This document shows, one piece after another, positions 11,865 to 64,000 of a stretch of 64,000 bases of DNA; within the stretch, counting starts at the first letter, position 1; every line of letters starts with the position of its first letter. The stretch covers positions 42,284,001-42,348,000 of the forward strand of contig OX597821.1 of the NCBI GenBank assembly GCA_951406725.2, written 5' to 3'. The notes below the pieces were generated by a model. The model was given only the letters and a program-made list of their open reading frames with translations. It had not been told where the DNA came from and searched no databases. Both the position numbers and the translations under genes were made by a program. The DNA comes from Octopus vulgaris. Taxonomy: Eukaryota.

Positions 11865-12140
11865 TACATATATATACATACATATATATATATATATGTA
11901 TGTATATGTATGTATATATGTATGTGTGTATATGTGTGTGTGTGAGGGTGTGTGTATATGTATGTACACACACACACACACACAAGATTGATTTGATTGG
12001 TATTTTTAAAAGATTGGTCTGTCTTAACAGCAGGAAACAGATGGATTAATGGATTAGCTCACTCATCTTATAAGGGTTAACAATTAGAACAGGTGATGCA
12101 TTAATGTGAAGTGTCTCCTGTGTTAAGAGGGGTAACCTAC

Positions 12141-12403
12141 CAGCAGCCAGGGTTTGAAACCATTGTCTGTAAAACCATGTACAAGGAACTTTGTCGGTTT
12201 GCTATCATTGAAATGAGACACAGTCAACGTGAGAGGAAAATCAGCACGAACTAATGTATCTTCCGCCTTGTTCAGTCTGGTATACAATCGGAACTGGGTA
12301 TTGACATCTTTTCGAGACTGTGGAAGAAAGTTGATGGGTCTCCATATGCTGAAAAAACCATCAGTGCTCAAACAACCAAGCTTCCCATAGCAAGCACTCG
12401 ATC
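12141..12403 (-). CDS. Pancreatic lipase-related protein, exon 2 (SSACYGKLGCLSTDG...PTKFLVHGFTDNGFKPWLL)
   Basis: ctacag acceptor and gtaggt donor; 263 nt, phase 1 to 0. CYxxLGC, FRLYTR and the oxyanion-hole HGF motif are present. Confidence 0.93.
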
Positions 12404-12443
12404 CTGTAGGAAAACACAACAAAACAATAAACACAGAAATGTA

Positions 12444-12447
<4 letters not shown>

Positions 12448-12517
<70 letters not shown>

Positions 12518-12620
12518 TGTGTGTATGTATGTGTGTGTGCGTGTGTGTGTGTGTGCATGTGTGTGTGTGTTTGTGTGTGTGTGTAGTGTGTGTGTGTAGT
12601 GTGTGTGTGTGTGTAGTGTG

Positions 12621-12672
<52 letters not shown>

Positions 12673-12815
12673 TGTGTGTGTGTGTGTAGTGTGTGTGTGT
12701 AGTGTGTGTGTATAGTGTGTGTGTCTGTGTGTAGTGTGTGTGTGTGTGTGTAGTATGTGTGTGTGTGTATACGTTGCATATATGTGTGTGCATGTGTGCA
12801 CATATATATATATAT
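12448..12815. repeat. (TG)n microsatellite with TAG interruptions
   Basis: Seen directly. Similar (TG/CA)n, (TA)n and (TAA)n tracts at 1377-1450, 7781-7877, 17150-17300, 18103-18253, 36380-36650, 38055-38290 and 52180-52290. Confidence 0.95.
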
Positions 12816-13859
12816 TTTTTACCTTTTACTTGTTTCAGTCATTAGACTGTGGCCATGCTGGGGCACCACCTCAAAGAATTTTTAGCCAAATGAATCAATC
12901 TCAGTACTTATTATTTTAAAGCTTGATACTTATTCTATCAGGCTCTTTTGCCAAACTGCTAAAATACAGGGACATAAACACACCAACACCAGTTGTTAAG
13001 TGGTGGTGGGTGGGGTGACAAACACAAACACAAAGTTACATACACACACGCACACACACACACACTGCTTTCAGTTTCCATTTACCAAATCCACTCGCAG
13101 AGGCTGTAGCAGAAGACACTTGCACAAAGTATTATGAGGTGGGATTGAACCTGGAACCATATGGTTGTGAAACAAGCTTCTTACATACTACTCTCACCTT
13201 ACATCTTCCCTACAATATTTCTATATCTTTATCACTCACACCACACTCTCTTCTGAGTTACCTCTATTGTCTATCAACACCTTGCCTTATCTTTATCTCT
13301 TTCCCCACTTTTACACCTTTAAGGTGACTGCTAGCCTTTCTTTCTCTTGCTTCACCACCTACAATTTTCCTCCACCTCTCTTTGTACATCCTCCCCAATG
13401 CCTCACCATCTAGAATGCTTTCACAGTTTTCACATCCTGATCTTCTCCCTCCTACCTCTATTATACCATCCAGTATCTAGTTCTTACCCCTATCCTTGTG
13501 CCTCCTTTTCTTTTACTGCTCTTCCTTCTCTGACCTTCATCTCCAACCACCCTATACCTCTCTTTCTTTCAGTAACTCATTCAGGATTGCTCTCCACTCA
13601 AGTCTATTGCTCCCTTCCTGTGTCCTTCTCTTTGCACCTTCTATCCATACCCAATCTGTATAATGTTGGATAGCCCTAGAGTCCCTTACCTCATACAACC
13701 CACCCTATAACCTTTCCAACTCTATCTCTCCCTTTTTATCAACCCTATTACTAATCCCTTCCCCTCATCCCTGTTCCCTACCTTACTCCCCCATCCTCTC
13801 ATTTTACCATCCCTCATCCTTCAAGGCCTCCATTTATGGAATCATTACAAGTTTGGCTG

Positions 13860-38619: not shown

Positions 38620-39915
38620 ACAAGAGAAGTCAAATTTAAGCATATTCCCCTCAACCATGCTTGCTTGCTTGTTTGATGGCCCATTAAGAATTTGGTGAGT
38701 GCTTCATCAGTTCCTTACTCATTCCTTGCTTTTTTTAGCACACACTTGAAAGTATCTATGAATCATTCTACTTACACATTTGACTTCGGGTGGTAGGGTG
38801 GGGTAAGCATGTGCTTGACTGCATGCATTTTGCAGAATTTCTTGAACTCGTATCCTGTAAATTGTGTTCCATTGTCTGATGCTATGGTGTCCGGAAAACC
38901 ATATTGAGCAAAAAGTTCATGCAGGAACTTTATTGTTGCCTTTGTGGTAGGTTGACTGCACCATCATACTTCTGGCCACTTGGTAAAGCTATCAACAATG
39001 ATCAAGTAGTACATACCATTCACTGGTCCAATGTAGTCTATATATACCCTGGGCCACAAACTATCCATCTCAGGCCATGATTGGTATTTCATAGGTGGTG
39101 CCTTGTCTGCTAGTGCACAACATCTGCATGATTTTACAAAATTTTCATTGTCCTTGTCTATTGCTGACCATTACACATAACTATTCATCAATGCTTTGAT
39201 TTTTGACATCCCCGGATGTCCACTATGAAATTCATGCGACATTTGTTTCTGTAGTGCAGTTGGTACTACCACTCTTTGTGCATACATTAATACATCATCA
39301 CGGAGTGAAAAATGGTTCACATTCAAGATTCCCTTTTGTTTATTTTTCAAGGTTTCCTTCATTTTTCTGATGTATTTGTCCTCTGCAGATTTACTTTTTA
39401 TATATTGTACAGTCACTGGCAACTCCTGAATGACATTACACATAACGTTTTTAATTTCCTTTTCTGATTGTAATGCAGCTATCACCATATCTTCCAGCAG
39501 TTTCACATTCTTCGCATGGCCAATTTTCTCAGAAGGAATGTACTCCATCTTAAAGTTGTAATTTAGCAATATTGAACCCCAGTGTTGTAATATGTAAGTT
39601 GTATGGGTAGGAATTCCTTTCTTCGATTCAAAAATTAATAGTAACGGTTGGTTGTCTGTCTGAAGCCGAAAACTTCTACCATGGAGAAATCTGTGAAATT
39701 TCTTCACAGCAAAAATAATTGCTATAGCTTCTTTCTCTATCTGACCGTAGTTTTTTTTTCTGCTGCAATCAGAGCACATGAAGCATGAACCACTGCCTTC
39801 ATATTATCATCTTTATATTTGTGTAGCAAAACTGCTCCTATGCTGTATTCAGAATTGTCAGAAGCTGCAACAATTTTTGCTGCAGGTTCGAAATGAGCCA
39901 GTGACAAATCTGAAA
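38620..39915 (-). mobile_element. Ty3/Gypsy pol remnant (RNase H + integrase), no LTRs seen
   Basis: NYGQIEKEAIAIIFAVKKFH...QTDNQPL, HSGHPG, VDSFTKWPE and SDNGTQF motifs. Confidence 0.85.
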
Positions 39916-58509: not shown

Positions 58510-61382
58510 TTAAAGATCACAATCTCTCCGCTCCATGTTGTAGTCTACCATCCAACCGGGAGAGCGCCTTACTCGTCGAGATCTTCTCAAGCTGGGCTCC
58601 TCATTCTCCCCCTCTCCCGAATCATCGTCCGTCGAAGCAACAATCCTGCGAAGGTCCAAGACATGTCGTGGTGTGCCATCTACGGATACGTTGCTTCTGG
58701 AATTGATCGCCGTCACCGTTCCTCTGCTCCATTGAGACGTACAGCGCGCCTTTGGTGGCTTGGCCCAGACTTCCTCCCCTATTTTCACGCGAACGGGTCC
58801 CTTCTCTTCCTCGTGACCCTCCGGCGCTTTGCTCGGGTGCCTCCATTCATATTTGAACACAGCTCTCTGCGGCACAGATTCCTCAGCTTGTCCGGATCGG
58901 GGAGACAAGTTGTACCAAAAAACTGCTTCAAGCGGCGAAATGTGCCCTCTTTCCGCTATGGCCTTGACTGTCCGATGGTGCCTCTCCACGATCCCGTTAC
59001 CGCCCGGCCTATACGCTGCTCTGAACAAGCGTCGCACGTTCCACCGATCAAGCATAACCCTCAATGCTTCCGAACGAAACGCCGCCCCGTTGTCCATCAG
59101 TAGTTCTTCCACGGGACCTCTCTCTAAAAATATCCCGTTCAGGATCTGCACGATCTCGTCAGCAATGCCCGATCTCAACTCCCTCCAAATGGCCAGCCGG
59201 CCCGGCCCACAGTCGACCATGGAGAGGTACATTCGCTGGCGGTAGTGTGTCACATCCACAGCTAGCCTTTTCCAGTTCTGCTCCACGGAAAGGCTTCCCT
59301 GTTCATGCCCACACGGAGCAGGGTCGATGGACTGACACCTGTCGCAGCTCCCGACCACCTTCCAGACGCTTCTCCTGGTGACGTCAGCATCAATTTTTTT
59401 TTTGCCAGATACAGGGTCCTGTCCACACCCAGGTGATGCATAGCGTGCAGTTTCTTCAGTTCAGAGTCATCCAACCGACACGCCGCAGCTATCCCTTTCC
59501 GAGCCTCCTCCGGTTCTTCCAACCACGCCCTTTTCACCCTGGTCAGTACGTCCGCCTTGTTTTTCTCCGAAGGCACGAAAACCACGTTCAGCTTCAGTCC
59601 GAATTCGGCGATCAATTCACCTAGAACTCCTAGACGGCGCTTCACTAACATCTCCGCAGCACCTTTCGTCCGCACTCTCCTGTCACCGGTGATCACCGAT
59701 CCTACCCAGCCAAGCACAGTGGCCGAATCCGTCCGCATTTCAATCGTGCGCAGCCCCCATTTCAAGGCCAAGTTCACCCCTTTCAGCAGCGCGTCTAATT
59801 CGGCGACATTGATGTGGTTGAAATCATCTGCTTTCCGAAGCCAGGCCGCGTCCTCCACCGCAGTGCCTTCGATTGCCAACACCACCCCTATCGCTATACT
59901 GCTAGCATCACACCAGACGGTCCCGCATTTCGTCTTGGGCACGTACCAGTTCCCCCTGACCGGGTCTTCCGCTCTTGTCCTCTCTAGGATCTCCTGCATC
60001 ATCGCCACCATCCCTTCTCCCACCTTGTCGCCCCACCTCTCTCCTTCTGCTCGTCTCTTGGTGTAGCTACAGGCCGTGCGCAGCCATCCAGCGATCGGGT
60101 AGTGACCGACCAACTTCCCACACACCGACAACAGCTCTCTCCTGCTGACGCTGGAACTCAGCTCTGGGATTTCATTTCCTCTCCGGAACACCAATTCACC
60201 TGATCTATCTCTTCGCAGCTTCAGCCCCAGCGCGGCTCCCCCTTCAATCGACTCCGGTGGCTTAGCAATCAGTCCGAACTTCTCCAGATGTCTAACTACC
60301 TCGTCGGCTGGCACTACAGTTTCGTCCACCAAAATGTCGTCAATGTAGGAGCTGGTGGCCTTTCTAATCTAGCCGTCTTTCCCTAGGACGGACCTAAGCA
60401 CTGCTGCCATGATCTTCGGAGCGGAATTCAGCCCGAAACCCAGCCTGGTTAGACAGTACGTCCGGCCCTTGTACCGCACCAGCTGATATCGCCATAGTTT
60501 GTCGCTCACATGGAGCTGCAAGTATGCCGATCTCAAGTCGACAATCGTCGCTGCCTCAGTCGACTGTCTCCACTTACGTAGTGCCTCACCACAAACGTCT
60601 GTCGTCTCACCTCCCGTGTGACACGATATGTGCTGGTTTAGCTCCCTGAAGTCCAGCACCGGTCTGACTTTTCCCTTCGTAGGCTGCACCACCGCCATCA
60701 GGGGTAGCACTCCGCCCGCTACCTCCTCCTTCCAAGGGACAAGGACTCCTTCCTCGATCCACCTCTCCACCTCGTCTTCAAACTCAACCCTGGCGTGGCC
60801 TTTCAGGGTATGCTGGTAACAGCTCACCCTGTTCTCCAGTGTCGGGGGCTCGTCCTTCCCTTTCCACTCTATCGTCCACCGCTGACCATCGAACGCCGCC
60901 TGAAAGTCTTTGTCCTCGATGGTGTAAGCGGCGCAGTCCCTCGCGGGGCTCTGCTCCCTCTGGCGATCCTGACTCGCAGTGCACGACGCCCCCACGCTTC
61001 CGAACGTGACCTCATTTCCCACAACACTGACGCCACCGAGGCAGTTGATGGCGTCCATCCCCATCACCACATCAACTCCATTTATCACGCGTTCGGCCAC
61101 AATTGCCTGTAGCCTTAGCGTCGCGCCGAGCACCACTATCTCTACCTTGCTGCTGCCTCTGCAACGGATTTCGCTGCGGTCGACCGCCCAGACACTACAC
61201 ACCCCGTTCCATTCCTTCGTCACCCTCGAAGTCACCAGGGTGGTCGTACAGCCCGTATCCACAAGGGCCTTGAACGTCTCCCCCTCGGCCTCCACGTCAA
61301 TCAATGGCAGCGTCTCCAATAGCGCCTCTACTCGTTTGAGGGGAAAGTTCGAGAGGCAGCAACTTCCCCGCGGTCGTTTCCC
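58510..61382 (-). pseudogene. pol: Pol (protease, RT, RNase H, integrase) with one in-frame stop and one frameshift
   Basis: LVDTG, RPVLDFRELN, VDLRSAY, GFGLNSAP, TAG at 60369-60371, SYIDD, WCDAS, HINVAE, TDS, frameshift in an A10 run near 59394-59403, then HHCC, AVD, MDNG and IVERH. Confidence 0.92.
61321..61382 (-). promoter_or_regulatory. -1 ribosomal frameshift signal (G GGA AAC plus pseudoknot)
   Basis: Slippery heptamer at 61382-61376 in the gag frame, 6-nt spacer, stem GGGGAAGTT/AACTTTCCCC, and loop GCCTCT complementary to downstream AGAGGC. Confidence 0.8.
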
Positions 61383-62092
61383 TGGCCGCAATCACGGGCA
61401 ATGTGCCCTGTCTGCCTGCATCGATAGCAAACGGGCCCCGGCTGCGTACAGTCCCGCGCCATGTGCGGTCCCTGGCATCTAAAACACCGTCCTGAGAACG
61501 GCCGCTCACGTTGCACGGTGAGCTTTTGTACCTCTTTCTCGGGACGTCGTCCGTCTTTACGCGCCTCCGTCACCGCCATCGCTATCGCCTTCCGCCCAGA
61601 GTGTCTCGTCAACGCGCGAGCATGAGTTACAAGTTCACTCAATGGCATCTTTTTGACCCCGGGCAGTCGTTGTAGGTGAATCCCTACATCGTCGGGGAAC
61701 CCATTCACGAACGCCAGTCGGGCTGCTCTCTCCAGTCCTTCTCCGGCAAACCCGGCCAGAGTCGCTAGCCTTCTAGCTTCCGATGCAAAATCATCCACCT
61801 GGCCTCCCATCCACCTGATTGCACCTAGCTTAGCGAAAGCTGTGTACTCGCATTCCGTGTATGCGTTACACAAGCGTCGCTCTATATTCTCATCGCAGAG
61901 CCGTTCCTCTTCATCCATCTCTAGGTAAAGCGACAACGCACTCCCTTCCAAATACAGCGCCATAAGACTCGCCACGTCGCTTATGCCCTGCAGTCTCGCC
62001 ACCAGCCTGATTTTCCGAATCCAGGCCACTACATCGCCTTCGCCGTTAAAAGGTCTGACGACGTCACTGGCGATCCTAATTTTTGCAGACAT
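61328..62092 (-). CDS. gag: Gag of the LTR retrotransposon (254 aa, two zinc knuckles)
   Basis: Open ORF from ATG; CFRCQGPHMARDC and CYRCRQTGHIARDC knuckles. Confidence 0.9.
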   Translation of the reverse strand: MSAKIRIASDVVRPFNGEGDVVAWIRKIRLVARLQGISDVASLMALYLEGSALSLYLEMDEEERLCDENIERRLCNAYTECEYTAFAKLGAIRWMGGQVDDFASEARRLATLAGFAGEGLERAARLAFVNGFPDDVGIHLQRLPGVKKMPLSELVTHARALTRHSGRKAIAMAVTEARKDGRRPEKEVQKLTVQRERPFSGRCFRCQGPHMARDCTQPGPVCYRCRQTGHIARDCGQGNDRGEVAASRTFPSNE

Positions 62093-62126
62093 CGTGTTGA
62101 AAAAAAAACGAGAATGTTTACGAACT

Positions 62127-62138
62127 GCCGAAATAGCT
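62127..62138 (-). promoter_or_regulatory. Non-canonical primer-binding site AGCTATTTCGGC, complementary to tRNA-Phe nt 1-12
   Basis: Directly abuts the 5' LTR. The plus strand reads GCCGAAATAGCT, the recalled 5' end of metazoan tRNA-Phe(GAA). No TGG follows the LTR. Confidence 0.75.
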
Positions 62139-62412
62139 TGTAGTGAGCGTGCGATTTGAATATAGAGGCACCTACCTTTTCTTCGTGGCGACGGAGATCC
62201 TCCAGAGATGACTGGTCCTTCCTCACCCTACCCGAACACTAACGATAGCAGCTGCTAGCCCCAAACCCTTAGCGTCGTCCACGCACGTCTTGTCGCCAGC
62301 ACGACCCACGTTGGAAAGGTCAATTTTCGCCCCCTGCGCACGCTTGCCAGCTGACCCCTTCCGCTTACCCCAGCTTCCGGTCAACGCACCCTCCTGCTGA
62401 CGTCATCCCACA
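62139..62412 (-). repeat. 5' LTR (274 bp)
   Basis: TGTAG...CCACA; differs from the 3' LTR by 6 substitutions and one 14-bp indel by manual comparison. Confidence 0.95.
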
Positions 62413-63416
62413 GATATATTTATTCATATAAAGAGGACAGCTTATAAAAGCAGTCCTCTTCATTTGTCAGCCCTGTTTGTGGTATATATATGAAGATAAT
62501 TGTCAATGTTGTTTTGTCTATGATTGGCCCAATCTTAATTATTCAAGTAACTAAGGCTGAATATACATTCAACCCCAGTTACTTTAACAATCCTACTCCC
62601 TAATAATAACACATGAACTCCACTCATCCCAACACTACTAGCCATCTAGAATTTATACCTTTGTTCTTTGCTTGTGAGGAGTTTGGATGAAGCTCCCTTC
62701 CATTTTACTCATCAGTACAGCACACAGCCACTTACCTTCAACAGTTCTGCAATCTCTCCTAACCTATTTCTCTACTACCCACAAGGGGCTAAACACAGAG
62801 AGGACAAGCAAGGACAGACAAACGGATTAAGTCGATTATATCGACCCCAGTGCGTGACTGGCACTTATTTAATCGACCCCGAAAGGATGAAAGGCAAAGT
62901 CGACCTCGGCGGAATTTGAACTCAGAACGTAACGACAGACGAAATACCGCTAAGCATTTCGCCCGGTGTGCTAACATTCCTGCCAGCTCGCCGCTGTACA
63001 TAGCATTTACAACCATTTTCTCCTAACCTACCTTTGACTGTGCTGATATCTATGGTGGCAGTCCTAACATTATGAACCTGAAAGAAAGAGAGGGCTATCA
63101 TGCACGTAGTGTGGAGCGACTGACCTCCCTTGTTCGAAGGTTATATGGATACAGTTTGTGTATCAAATAGCTAACTTAAGGTGATGGCCTCATGGAGCTA
63201 ATAAGCAGACAGCTTTATTCTTATTTTTATAAGAATGCCATATTAGTATGGCGATAACTATTATTTTCCGGAAACGCTGCCGTTGTTCTCTTTTAGAGAG
63301 ACTTAGTAATTTTAATATTTCTATTATTGAAAACAAGTGGATGTATTCCACCGAAGCTAGGTAAATAAAACCTTTGAACAGAGATTGTCAGAAGCGACAC
63401 CTACTGGTCTGGCTAC

Positions 63417-63458
63417 GCTACATTGAAAAGGGGCAATACCCCGAAACGCGTCTGTAGC
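63417..63458 (+). ncRNA. Minimal type I hammerhead ribozyme, U3-A8 core variant (copy 1; predicted cleavage after C63452)
   Basis: GCTACA-TTGAAAA-GGGG-CAATA-CCCC-GAAA-CGCG-TC-TGTAGC. Confidence 0.8.
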
Positions 63459-63779
63459 TGCCGGTCAAGTAGTGTGGAGCAACTGACCTCCCTTGTTCGA
63501 AGGTTATATGGATACAGTTTGTGTATCAAATAGCTAACTTAAGGTGATGGCCTCATGGAGCTAATAAGCGGACAGCTTTATTCTTATTTTTATAAGAATG
63601 CCATATTAGTATGGCGATAACTATTATTTTCCGGAAACGCTGCCGTTGTTCTCTTTTAGAGAGACTTAGTAATTTTAATATTTCTATTATTGAAAACAAG
63701 TGGATGTATTCCACCGAAGCTAGGTAAATAAAACCTTCGAACAGAGATTGTCAGAAGCGACACCTACTGGTCTGGCTAC

Positions 63780-63821
63780 GCTACATTGAAAAGGGGCAAT
63801 ACCCCGAAACGTGTCTGTAGC
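63780..63821 (+). ncRNA. Minimal type I hammerhead ribozyme, U3-A8 core variant (copy 2; predicted cleavage after C63815)
   Basis: Same as copy 1 except stem III reads GAAACGTGTC. Confidence 0.75.
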
Positions 63822-64000
63822 TGCCGGTCAAGTAGTGTGGAGCGACTGACCTCCCTTGTTCGAAGGTTATATGGATAGTTTGTGTATCAAATAGCTAACT
63901 TAAGGTGATGGCCTCATGGAGCTAATAAGCGGACAGCTTTATTCTTATTTTTATAAGAATGCCATATTAGTATGGCGATAACTATTATATATATATATAT

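What the first reader, a model, noticed from the sequence alone, without database searches (positions are those of the whole stretch)
63417..63458. Hammerhead core is a compensatory U3-A8 variant (UUGAAAA) with a palindromic stem III, implying dimeric cleavage
Seen: the core is TTGAAAA instead of CTGANGA, so positions 3 and 8 are both changed while U4, G5, A6, A9, GAAA and GUC are intact. Stem III is only ACGCGT (palindrome) in copy 1 and ACGTGT in copy 2. Known: positions 3 and 8 form a Watson-Crick pair in the active fold, and minimal hammerheads with palindromic stem III cleave as dimers. Inference: the double change is covariation rather than decay. The two adjacent copies could form a 6-bp inter-unit stem III with one G-U pair, so cleavage would need a multimeric transcript. 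Standard CUGANGA searches would miss this motif.
Basis: partly seen in the sequence, partly recalled or inferred. Interest (0 to 1): 0.75.

Follow-up and report, generated by a model that had tools for sequence, protein, structure and literature searches.

The report
Dimer-cutting U3-A8 hammerhead retrozyme
This is one copy of an abundant 363-base protein-free jumping repeat whose hammerhead self-cutting RNA motif has a swapped core base pair, and paired changes among its relatives suggest it likely cuts well only when two neighbouring copies fold together, a known behaviour that here has unusually clear support from the genome itself.

Summary
Observation confirmed. 63417-63458 and 63780-63821 are type I hammerheads in a 363-bp tandem retrozyme (63103-63988). 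U3-A8 is the family state: 1,204 of 1,207 exact-context matches, none C3-G8, and 683 further matches belong to older subfamilies (first 100 all U3-A8). A distant sister family has C3-G8, so the pair covaries. The stem III hexamer stays palindromic while its two adjacent middle bases change together (CGCG, CATG, CTAG; CCGG in the sister). In 100 listed C-W-W-G copies: 75 CATG, 25 CTAG, 0 CAAG, 0 CTTG. Adjacent bases cannot pair within one ribozyme, so this supports a double hammerhead. Corrections: the ribozyme is canonical-sized, not minimal, and copy 2's G-U is a private mutation. Natural U3-A8 cores and dimeric cleavage are both published; cleavage and expression were not tested here. Insertions show Penelope footprints (TA targets, two fixed ends), which this scan already reported for other retrozyme families in this genome; it also noted a U3-A8 palindromic hammerhead in another genome. 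An intact Penelope-like element here also carries a U3-A8/ACATGT hammerhead. New variant of a known kind.

The parts
63103..63988 (+). Whole insertion: about 2.4 tandem units of a 363-bp non-LTR retrozyme, 5'-truncated, one-armed
   Evidence: units 98-100% identical
63453..63815 (+). Monomer from predicted cut to predicted cut (363 nt); predicted highly self-paired RNA and likely circle
   Evidence: (z -8.0; that call folded 63454-63816, one base off)
63417..63458 (+). Hammerhead 1, type I, canonical size; predicted cut after C17 at 63452
63423..63429 (+). Core UUGAAAA with U3 (63423) and A8 (63428)
63446..63451 (+). Stem III palindrome ACGCGT (one A-U pair plus CGCG loop as monomer; 6 bp as dimer)
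63401..63472 (+). Extended stem I (63401-13 with 63460-72) and UAC bulge (63414-16) opposite U63459; likely partner of loop 2 CAAUA (tertiary contact inferred)
   Evidence: compensated between subfamilies, bulge TAC/TGC kept
63780..63821 (+). Hammerhead 2; hexamer ACGTGT with private C>T at 63812; predicted cut after 63815
63474..63763 (+). Rod arms 63474-63509 / 63728-63763 (72% complementary) that extend the monomer's end-to-end stem, the inner helix of the double hammerhead
63621..63627 (+). CTATTAT, first fixed 3' end site of the family (about 175 nt after the cut)
63684..63690 (+). CTATTAT, second fixed 3' end site (about 238 nt after the cut); the 63 nt between the sites is the Penelope-type tail
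63982..64000 (+). 3' end of this insertion at site 1 (63982-88) joined to a (TA)n target that runs past the window end
   Evidence: L001

Best explanation
The motif is the type I hammerhead of a 363-bp non-LTR retrozyme whose core pair is U3-A8 throughout the family, and it likely cleaves as a double hammerhead in which two copies pair their palindromic stem III hexamers. Shown: tandem 363-bp units; family-wide U3-A8; a C3-G8 sister family; a palindrome kept through double changes of its middle bases; fixed 3' ends in (TA)n; an intact Penelope-like element in the same genome. Inferred: a tandem copy is transcribed through; the monomer's end-to-end rod brings stem I 3' of copy 1 onto stem I 5' of copy 2, nesting the 6-bp inter-unit stem III; both sites are cut; the released monomer is circularised by a host ligase; as a lone circle it has only one half-site and so resists re-cutting; a Penelope-like RT/GIY-YIG protein cuts (TA)n DNA and reverse-transcribes the circle or multimer from two fixed internal sites, one per DNA strand.
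For: Core: 1,204 U3-A8, 2 C3-A8, 1 U3-G8, 0 C3-G8 in this exact context. 683 matches in AGGG/CCCT subfamilies with positions 3 and 8 left free, first 100 all U3-A8, 74-89% identical to the window unit where aligned. Sister family CTGACGA-GAGG..CCTC-GAAA-CCGG-TC in 63 of the first 100 of 157 matches (counted by eye); its spacer is similar to the window's at z 4.4-4.8, 0 of 300 shuffles, reverse-complement control z -0.2. Palindrome: 89 of the first 100 are palindromic (68 CATG, 17 CGCG, 4 CTAG; the 11 others are single-base departures); first 100 of 703 C-W-W-G matches are 75 CATG, 25 CTAG, 0 CAAG, 0 CTTG (both counted by eye). A spacer-only tree places CTAG (97/91) inside the CATG copies and needs at least two double changes. 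In 13 hand-picked representatives, 98.4% of cells pair, 9 of 14 pairs change on both sides, and the middle stem III pair occurs as G-C, A-U, U-A and C-G with no mismatch. Folding: local A15.1-U16.1 probability about 0 in a single copy; the double hammerhead beats two single ones in 15 of 15 window constructs by 2.1-16.4 kcal/mol and is the MFE in 7 of 15. The same one-pair-plus-palindromic-tetraloop architecture in axolotl gives 6% cleavage as monomer and much more as dimer (PMC7229834). Mobility: 78 of 85 outward 3' ends fall at two sites and 74 of those 78 abut (TA)n; 35 of 50 insertions are two-armed inverted, 29 of 35 pairing site 1 with site 2 (29 of 30 with typical ends, p 6e-8). A 781-aa RT + GIY-YIG frame is present in 10 of 12 loci fetched.
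Against: No cleavage or expression data. The double hammerhead is not the MFE in 8 of 15 window constructs: in all 5 starting at 63103 it lies 9-10 kcal/mol above a fold with local stems I and no stem III; in other natural tandems the inter-unit stem III is in the MFE in only 3 of 15 constructs. These energies ignore tertiary contacts. Fixation in a young family reflects descent from few masters, so 1,204 copies are not independent evidence; the number of independent palindrome changes is small (two within the family plus the sister), and CGCG/CATG could be CpG-driven. Sister homology is only about 50% by global alignment with no BLAST hit outside the ribozyme. Most invertebrate retrozyme hammerheads cleave well as monomers (PMC7229834). 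In an anole Penelope element, ribozyme mutants did not affect insertion in vitro and cleavage needed the protein (PMC11167929). No DNA similarity links the retrozyme unit to the intact Penelope-like element found, so that element is a candidate driver only.
Confidence: 0.7

Rival explanations
1. The ribozyme cleaves adequately as a monomer, stabilised by loop 2 / stem I bulge contacts; dimer pairing only speeds it up, and the palindrome is kept for that boost.
For: Canonical helix sizes, conserved loop 2 and bulge; invertebrate retrozymes usually cleave as monomers (PMC7229834); the full 886-nt transcript's MFE keeps stems I local.
Against: Only one pair can close stem III locally, predicted probability about 0; adjacent middle bases covary, with CAAG and CTTG absent from 100 listed copies; the like-built axolotl ribozyme is poor as a monomer.
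Confidence: 0.18
2. The structure is selected but self-cleavage is protein-assisted or dispensable: the Penelope protein binds or folds the motif, and spread uses uncut multimeric transcripts rather than circles.
For: Anole Penelope ribozyme needed protein to cleave and was not needed for insertion in vitro (PMC11167929); insertion ends lie far from the cut and arms run across it, which fits an uncut multimer as well as a circle.
Against: All catalytic positions and the 3-8 pair are kept across subfamilies 11-26% apart; comparable animal retrozymes give circles in vivo (PMC7229834).
Confidence: 0.1
3. U3 and A8 are two independent decay mutations of a C3-G8 ribozyme in a dead copy.
For: Both are transitions; copy 2 carries one private decay mutation in stem III.
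Against: 1,204 of 1,207 matches and the first 100 of 683 older-subfamily matches are U3-A8; young, 95-100% identical copies carry it.
Confidence: 0.02

Closest known systems
Metazoan non-LTR retrozymes (Cervera & de la Pena 2020, PMC7229834; passages and parts 3-4 of the text read; Li, Clavereau & Pollet 2026, 10.64898/2026.07.22.740005; part 1 and passages read)
   Same: Tandem 170-400-bp non-coding units, low GC, one type I hammerhead per unit, strongly self-paired monomer, co-occurrence with Penelope-like elements.
   Different: U3-A8 core; stem III of the amphibian kind in a genome whose other features I take for an invertebrate's (host not named by any tool); fixed two-site ends in (TA)n, which the passages I read do not describe for retrozymes.
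Axolotl HHR_Amex1 / newt satellite-2 double hammerheads (PMC7229834, part 3 read; PMC4209133, parts 1-2 read)
   Same: One-pair stem III capped by a palindromic tetraloop, canonical helices I and II, tandem arrangement; dimer-dependent cleavage shown there.
   Different: No core variant is reported for them in the text read; here U3-A8, with three palindromes interchanged inside one family. Dimer dependence here is inferred only.
U3-A8 minimal hammerheads of Schistosoma Cercyon Penelope-like elements (PMC4209133, about 1,300 hits) and natural U3-A8 variants (Perreault 2011, PMC3088659; passages read)
   Same: Same compensatory 3-8 change; palindromic 15.2-16.2 region.
   Different: Those are heterogeneous, mostly single, minimal motifs with long helix II and short helix I; this one is canonical-sized and sits in a young tandem retrozyme.
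Penelope-like elements: insertion structure and two-site internal RT initiation (Craig 2021, PMC8557442, passages read; Frangieh 2024, PMC11167929, main text read)
   Same: Partial tandems, inverted 5'-truncated arm, tail at one end only, (TA)n targets, two RT start sites.
   Different: No ORF; tail is 63 nt rather than 30-40; both start sites end in CTATTAT, which matches the TA target, whereas the anole element starts at sites not homologous to the target.

Membership tests
Type I hammerhead ribozyme | Three helices around the conserved core (U4, G5, A6, A9, G12, A13, A14, A15.1-U16.1, H17), open end in stem I | tested here: met
Type I hammerhead ribozyme | Watson-Crick pair between positions 3 and 8 | tested here: met
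   U-A in 1,204 of 1,207; C-G in the sister family
Type I hammerhead ribozyme | Match to an Rfam hammerhead model | tested here: not met
   no hit at gathering score or E<=10; expected for a variant core with a 1-bp stem III, so it lowers only the Rfam label
Type I hammerhead ribozyme | Site-specific self-cleavage after H17 | not testable with these tools
   needs an in vitro assay or raw RNA reads
Minimal (PLE-type) hammerhead | Long helix II (7-8 bp), short helix I (4-5 bp), extra nucleotide between 9 and 10.1, no loop contacts | tested here: not met
   helix II 4 bp, helix I 6 bp plus extension, no extra nucleotide; definition from PMC4209133
Double (dimeric) hammerhead | Self-complementary stem III hexamer kept under change | tested here: met
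Double (dimeric) hammerhead | Tandem transcript folds into the double form | tested here: inconclusive
   better than two singles in 15 of 15, MFE in 7 of 15 window constructs
Double (dimeric) hammerhead | Dimer cleaves faster than monomer | not testable with these tools
   bench test
Non-LTR retrozyme | Dispersed tandem 170-400-bp non-coding units, each with a type I hammerhead | tested here: met
   (no frame of 150 aa or more in the element)
Non-LTR retrozyme | Highly self-paired monomer | tested here: met
   z -8.0, 0 of 100 shuffles
Non-LTR retrozyme | Expressed as linear and circular monomer RNA | not testable with these tools
   only contig-level runs of uncertain kind were offered
Penelope-mobilised element | Partial tandem plus inverted arm, tail on one end, microsatellite target | tested here: met
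Penelope-mobilised element | Identified autonomous partner sharing sequence | tested here: inconclusive
   intact RT + GIY-YIG element with U3-A8/ACATGT hammerhead and TA target exists but shows no DNA similarity to the unit

The most novel reading that the evidence does not exclude
The palindrome is a selected partner code: this retrozyme is an obligate double hammerhead, so monomer circles cannot cut themselves and families with different palindromes (CGCG, CATG, CTAG, CCGG) cannot activate each other, and the U3-A8/ACAUGU ribozyme was taken from the pLTR of the genome's own Penelope-like driver.
Probability: 0.3. Interest if true: 0.65.

Novelty: new variant of a known kind. Interest (0 to 1): 0.45.

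Why it matters
PMC7229834 notes that animal retrozyme circles are abundant although their ribozyme is predicted free to fold, and leaves open what blocks re-cutting. Dimer dependence would be a simple answer, and this family supplies natural matched and mismatched palindromes to test it. Covariation of two adjacent bases is phylogenetic evidence for a pairing between two ribozymes. It also shows that C3-G8-only descriptors and Rfam miss at least 1,887 ribozyme copies in this one genome, so retrozyme surveys may undercount.

Tried and rejected
Expression: no RNA holder listed as such; the runs laid were contigs of guessed or unknown kind, which cannot show ends, strand or circles. In one search (4 runs, four organism labels) no difference at positions 3 or 8 was listed at 2% or more; one search's table was cut, so I draw nothing from it on this. 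Rfam gave no hit. Search for a shared stretch between the retrozyme unit and the intact Penelope-like element: none beyond a neighbouring retrozyme copy in L128. Sixteen old dispersed U3-A8/TGCA or C3-G8 motifs were fetched to see whether they sit in Penelope pLTRs: they are related to each other (65-79% around the motif) but showed no recognisable RT frame by eye and no similarity to the unit. I considered TGCA as a CpG-decay artefact of CGCG; among 28 U3-A8 rows there were 12 TGCA, 0 TGTG, 1 CATG, 2 CACA (by eye), which argues against it, but I do not use that family as main evidence. Folding results for L055 and L075 with long flanks are artefacts (a forced non-canonical pair; an inverted arm) and were set aside. 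Lunse et al. 2017 (PMC5785218) is not held; I saw it only as cited in PMC6765202 (passages). Paper searches for octopus or cephalopod with hammerhead ribozyme listed no paper on this family; searches for the 3-8 swap listed PMC4209133 and three papers I did not open; one search gave nothing useful. No supplementary files were read; those of PMC7229834, PMC4209133 and the 2026 preprint may list related invertebrate retrozymes. Searches of earlier scan notes by sequence found nothing.

Full report
Observation. The sequence is as described. Stem I GCTACA/TGTAGC, core TTGAAAA, stem II GGGG-CAATA-CCCC, GAAA, hexamer ACGCGT and C17 lie at 63417-63458; a second copy 363 bp on has ACGTGT. The two sit in about 2.4 tandem units (63103-63988, 98-100% identical) followed by (TA)n. 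The monomer folds far better than shuffles (z -8.0). Rfam reports nothing. The host is a 2.8-Gb genome that no tool names; I take it for a cephalopod from a recalled repeat and from wording in earlier scan notes, unverified.

Is U3-A8 fixed? With stem II held exact, the genome has 1,204 U3-A8 matches (control 0), 2 C3-A8, 1 U3-G8 and no C3-G8. These patterns miss copies mutated elsewhere: one further C3-A8 copy with a stem II change turned up among 82 copies in hand. Older subfamilies with stem II AGGG/CCCT give 683 more matches; positions 3 and 8 were free in that pattern and the first 100 listed are all U3-A8. They are 74-89% identical to the window unit where BLAST aligned them (two rows gave no hit). 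Fixation alone shows descent, not covariation. Covariation comes from a sister family: 63 of the first 100 of 157 matches (control 29) to a C3-G8 pattern are one 359-360-bp tandem family, CTGACGA GAGG..CCTC GAAA CCGG TC. Its spacer resembles the window's (about 50% identity; z 4.4 and 4.8, 0 of 300 shuffles; reverse-complement control z -0.2) and it has the same insertion ends, so it is likely a distant relative. Natural U3-A8 is already published (PMC3088659, passages; PMC4209133, about 1,300 Schistosoma motifs).

What kind of hammerhead? Not minimal. Helix I is 6 bp with a UAC/UGC bulge and an extended, compensated helix beyond it; helix II is 4 bp with loop CAAUA, or CAAAUA in older subfamilies. 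From memory, that loop and bulge match the Schistosoma tertiary contact; this was not tested. On 13 hand-picked representatives, 98.4% of cells pair and 9 of 14 pairs change on both sides; slid controls give 24-56%. The rows are related and chosen, so this is descriptive.

Dimer evidence. As a monomer, stem III is one A-U pair closing a CGCG loop, predicted at about zero probability. This is the architecture of axolotl HHR_Amex1, which cleaved 6% as a monomer and much better as a dimer (PMC7229834). Within the family the hexamer changes but stays palindromic. With the four bases free, the first 100 rows are 68 CATG, 17 CGCG, 4 CTAG and 11 single-base departures. With C-W-W-G, the first 100 of 703 rows are 75 CATG, 25 CTAG, 0 CAAG, 0 CTTG. 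Both counts are by eye on the listed rows. A tree from spacer sequence only (69 rows, 61 distinct, midpoint root, bootstrap not settled) nests CTAG among CATG copies and needs at least two double changes. CATG to CTAG is two transversions with no amplified intermediate. The two bases are adjacent and cannot pair within one ribozyme, so pairing between two copies is the simplest reading. The number of independent events is small, and CGCG/CATG could be CpG-driven. Folding agrees in part: the double form is nested, with the monomer's end-to-end rod as its inner helix; it beats two single active folds in 15 of 15 window constructs (2.1-16.4 kcal/mol) and is the MFE in 7 of 15, but lies 9-10 kcal/mol above the MFE in all 5 that start at 63103; in other natural tandems the inter-unit stem III is in the MFE in 3 of 15.

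How it spreads. Among 50 distinct insertions (chosen by similarity or motif, so each has at least one ribozyme), 78 of 85 outward 3' ends lie about 175 or 238 nt after the cut, both ending CTATTAT, and 74 of the 78 abut (TA)n. Thirty-five are two-armed inverted; 29 pair one end of each kind, 1 pairs like with like, 5 have an atypical end (p 6e-8 for 29 of 30). Older subfamilies give 13 mixed, 1 like-with-like and 6 atypical among 20 two-armed loci of 37; the sister family 10 mixed of 11 two-armed (by eye). Inverted arm, one-sided tail and TA targets are Penelope hallmarks (PMC8557442), and two internal RT start sites on both DNA strands were shown in vitro (PMC11167929). The genome holds an intact 781-aa RT + GIY-YIG element (148 GIY-YIG matches; 10 of 12 loci fetched; RVT_1 E 1e-6, just under its cut-off, and GIY-YIG E 3e-6) that ends in (TA)n and carries a pLTR hammerhead TTGATAA...GAAA CATG TW in 13 of 32 loci scanned: the same core and palindrome as the CATG subfamilies, without other DNA similarity. 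Earlier scan notes describe the same footprint for other retrozyme families in this genome.

Mechanism. Shown: anatomy, fixation, covariation, insertion footprints, presence of a candidate driver. Inferred: read-through transcription of tandem copies, double-hammerhead cleavage, ligation to a circle by a host ligase (by analogy with PMC7229834), protection of the lone circle, and copying by a Penelope-like protein from two sites. Ends far from the cut fit a circle or an uncut multimer equally. I found no promoter evidence and did not test for one.

Verdict. What is added is their combination in a young, abundant, canonical-sized retrozyme and within-family covariation of the palindrome's middle pair. 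My paper searches listed no description of this family; the key paper on dimeric Penelope hammerheads was not available and no supplements were read, so prior description cannot be excluded. New variant of a known kind; interest 0.45.

Noticed in passing
window 58510-62227, minus strand: Broken LTR-retrotransposon-like frames: zinc knuckle, aspartyl protease, DUF7047/RNase H-like, integrase core; GC-rich against the surroundings. Another RT-RNase H fragment at 39171-39803.
   Followed up: partly
window 12123-12818, minus strand: Open frame with a Pfam Lipase match (E 8e-8), probably an exon of a host lipase gene.
   Followed up: no
window 62766-63000: Dispersed SINE-like repeat just upstream of the retrozyme; 8 further hits in the window and hits in 33 of 181 sequences held. 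Class is recalled, not tested.
   Followed up: partly
L065-L093 (e.g. L069:1495-1536): Sister retrozyme family, 359-360 bp, C3-G8 core, ACCGGT palindrome, loop 2 variants CAATA/CGACCA/CGATTA, ends at 179-181 and 223-228 into (TA)n.
   Followed up: yes
L130-L141 (e.g. L135:2239-4584): Young intact Penelope-like element, 781 aa, with a U3-A8/ACATGT hammerhead about 880 nt after the stop and an A/U-only stem I; many copies keep the full frame.
   Followed up: partly
L094-L109 and one search list: Old dispersed hammerhead-like families (305 matches, control 5): U3-A8 mostly with ATGCAT, C3-G8 mostly with ACATGT; first 100 rows 28 U-A, 41 C-G, 21 C-A, 10 U-G (by eye).
   Followed up: partly
L012, L143, L149, L173 stem I: Stem I position shows A-U, G-U and G-C states across subfamilies, a stepwise compensatory path through a wobble pair.
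   Followed up: partly
one search list, e.g. G000:C2:103262413: A few C3-G8 motifs ending GAAACCCGT with GGGT stem II recur; possibly another old hammerhead family with a non-palindromic stem III.
   Followed up: no
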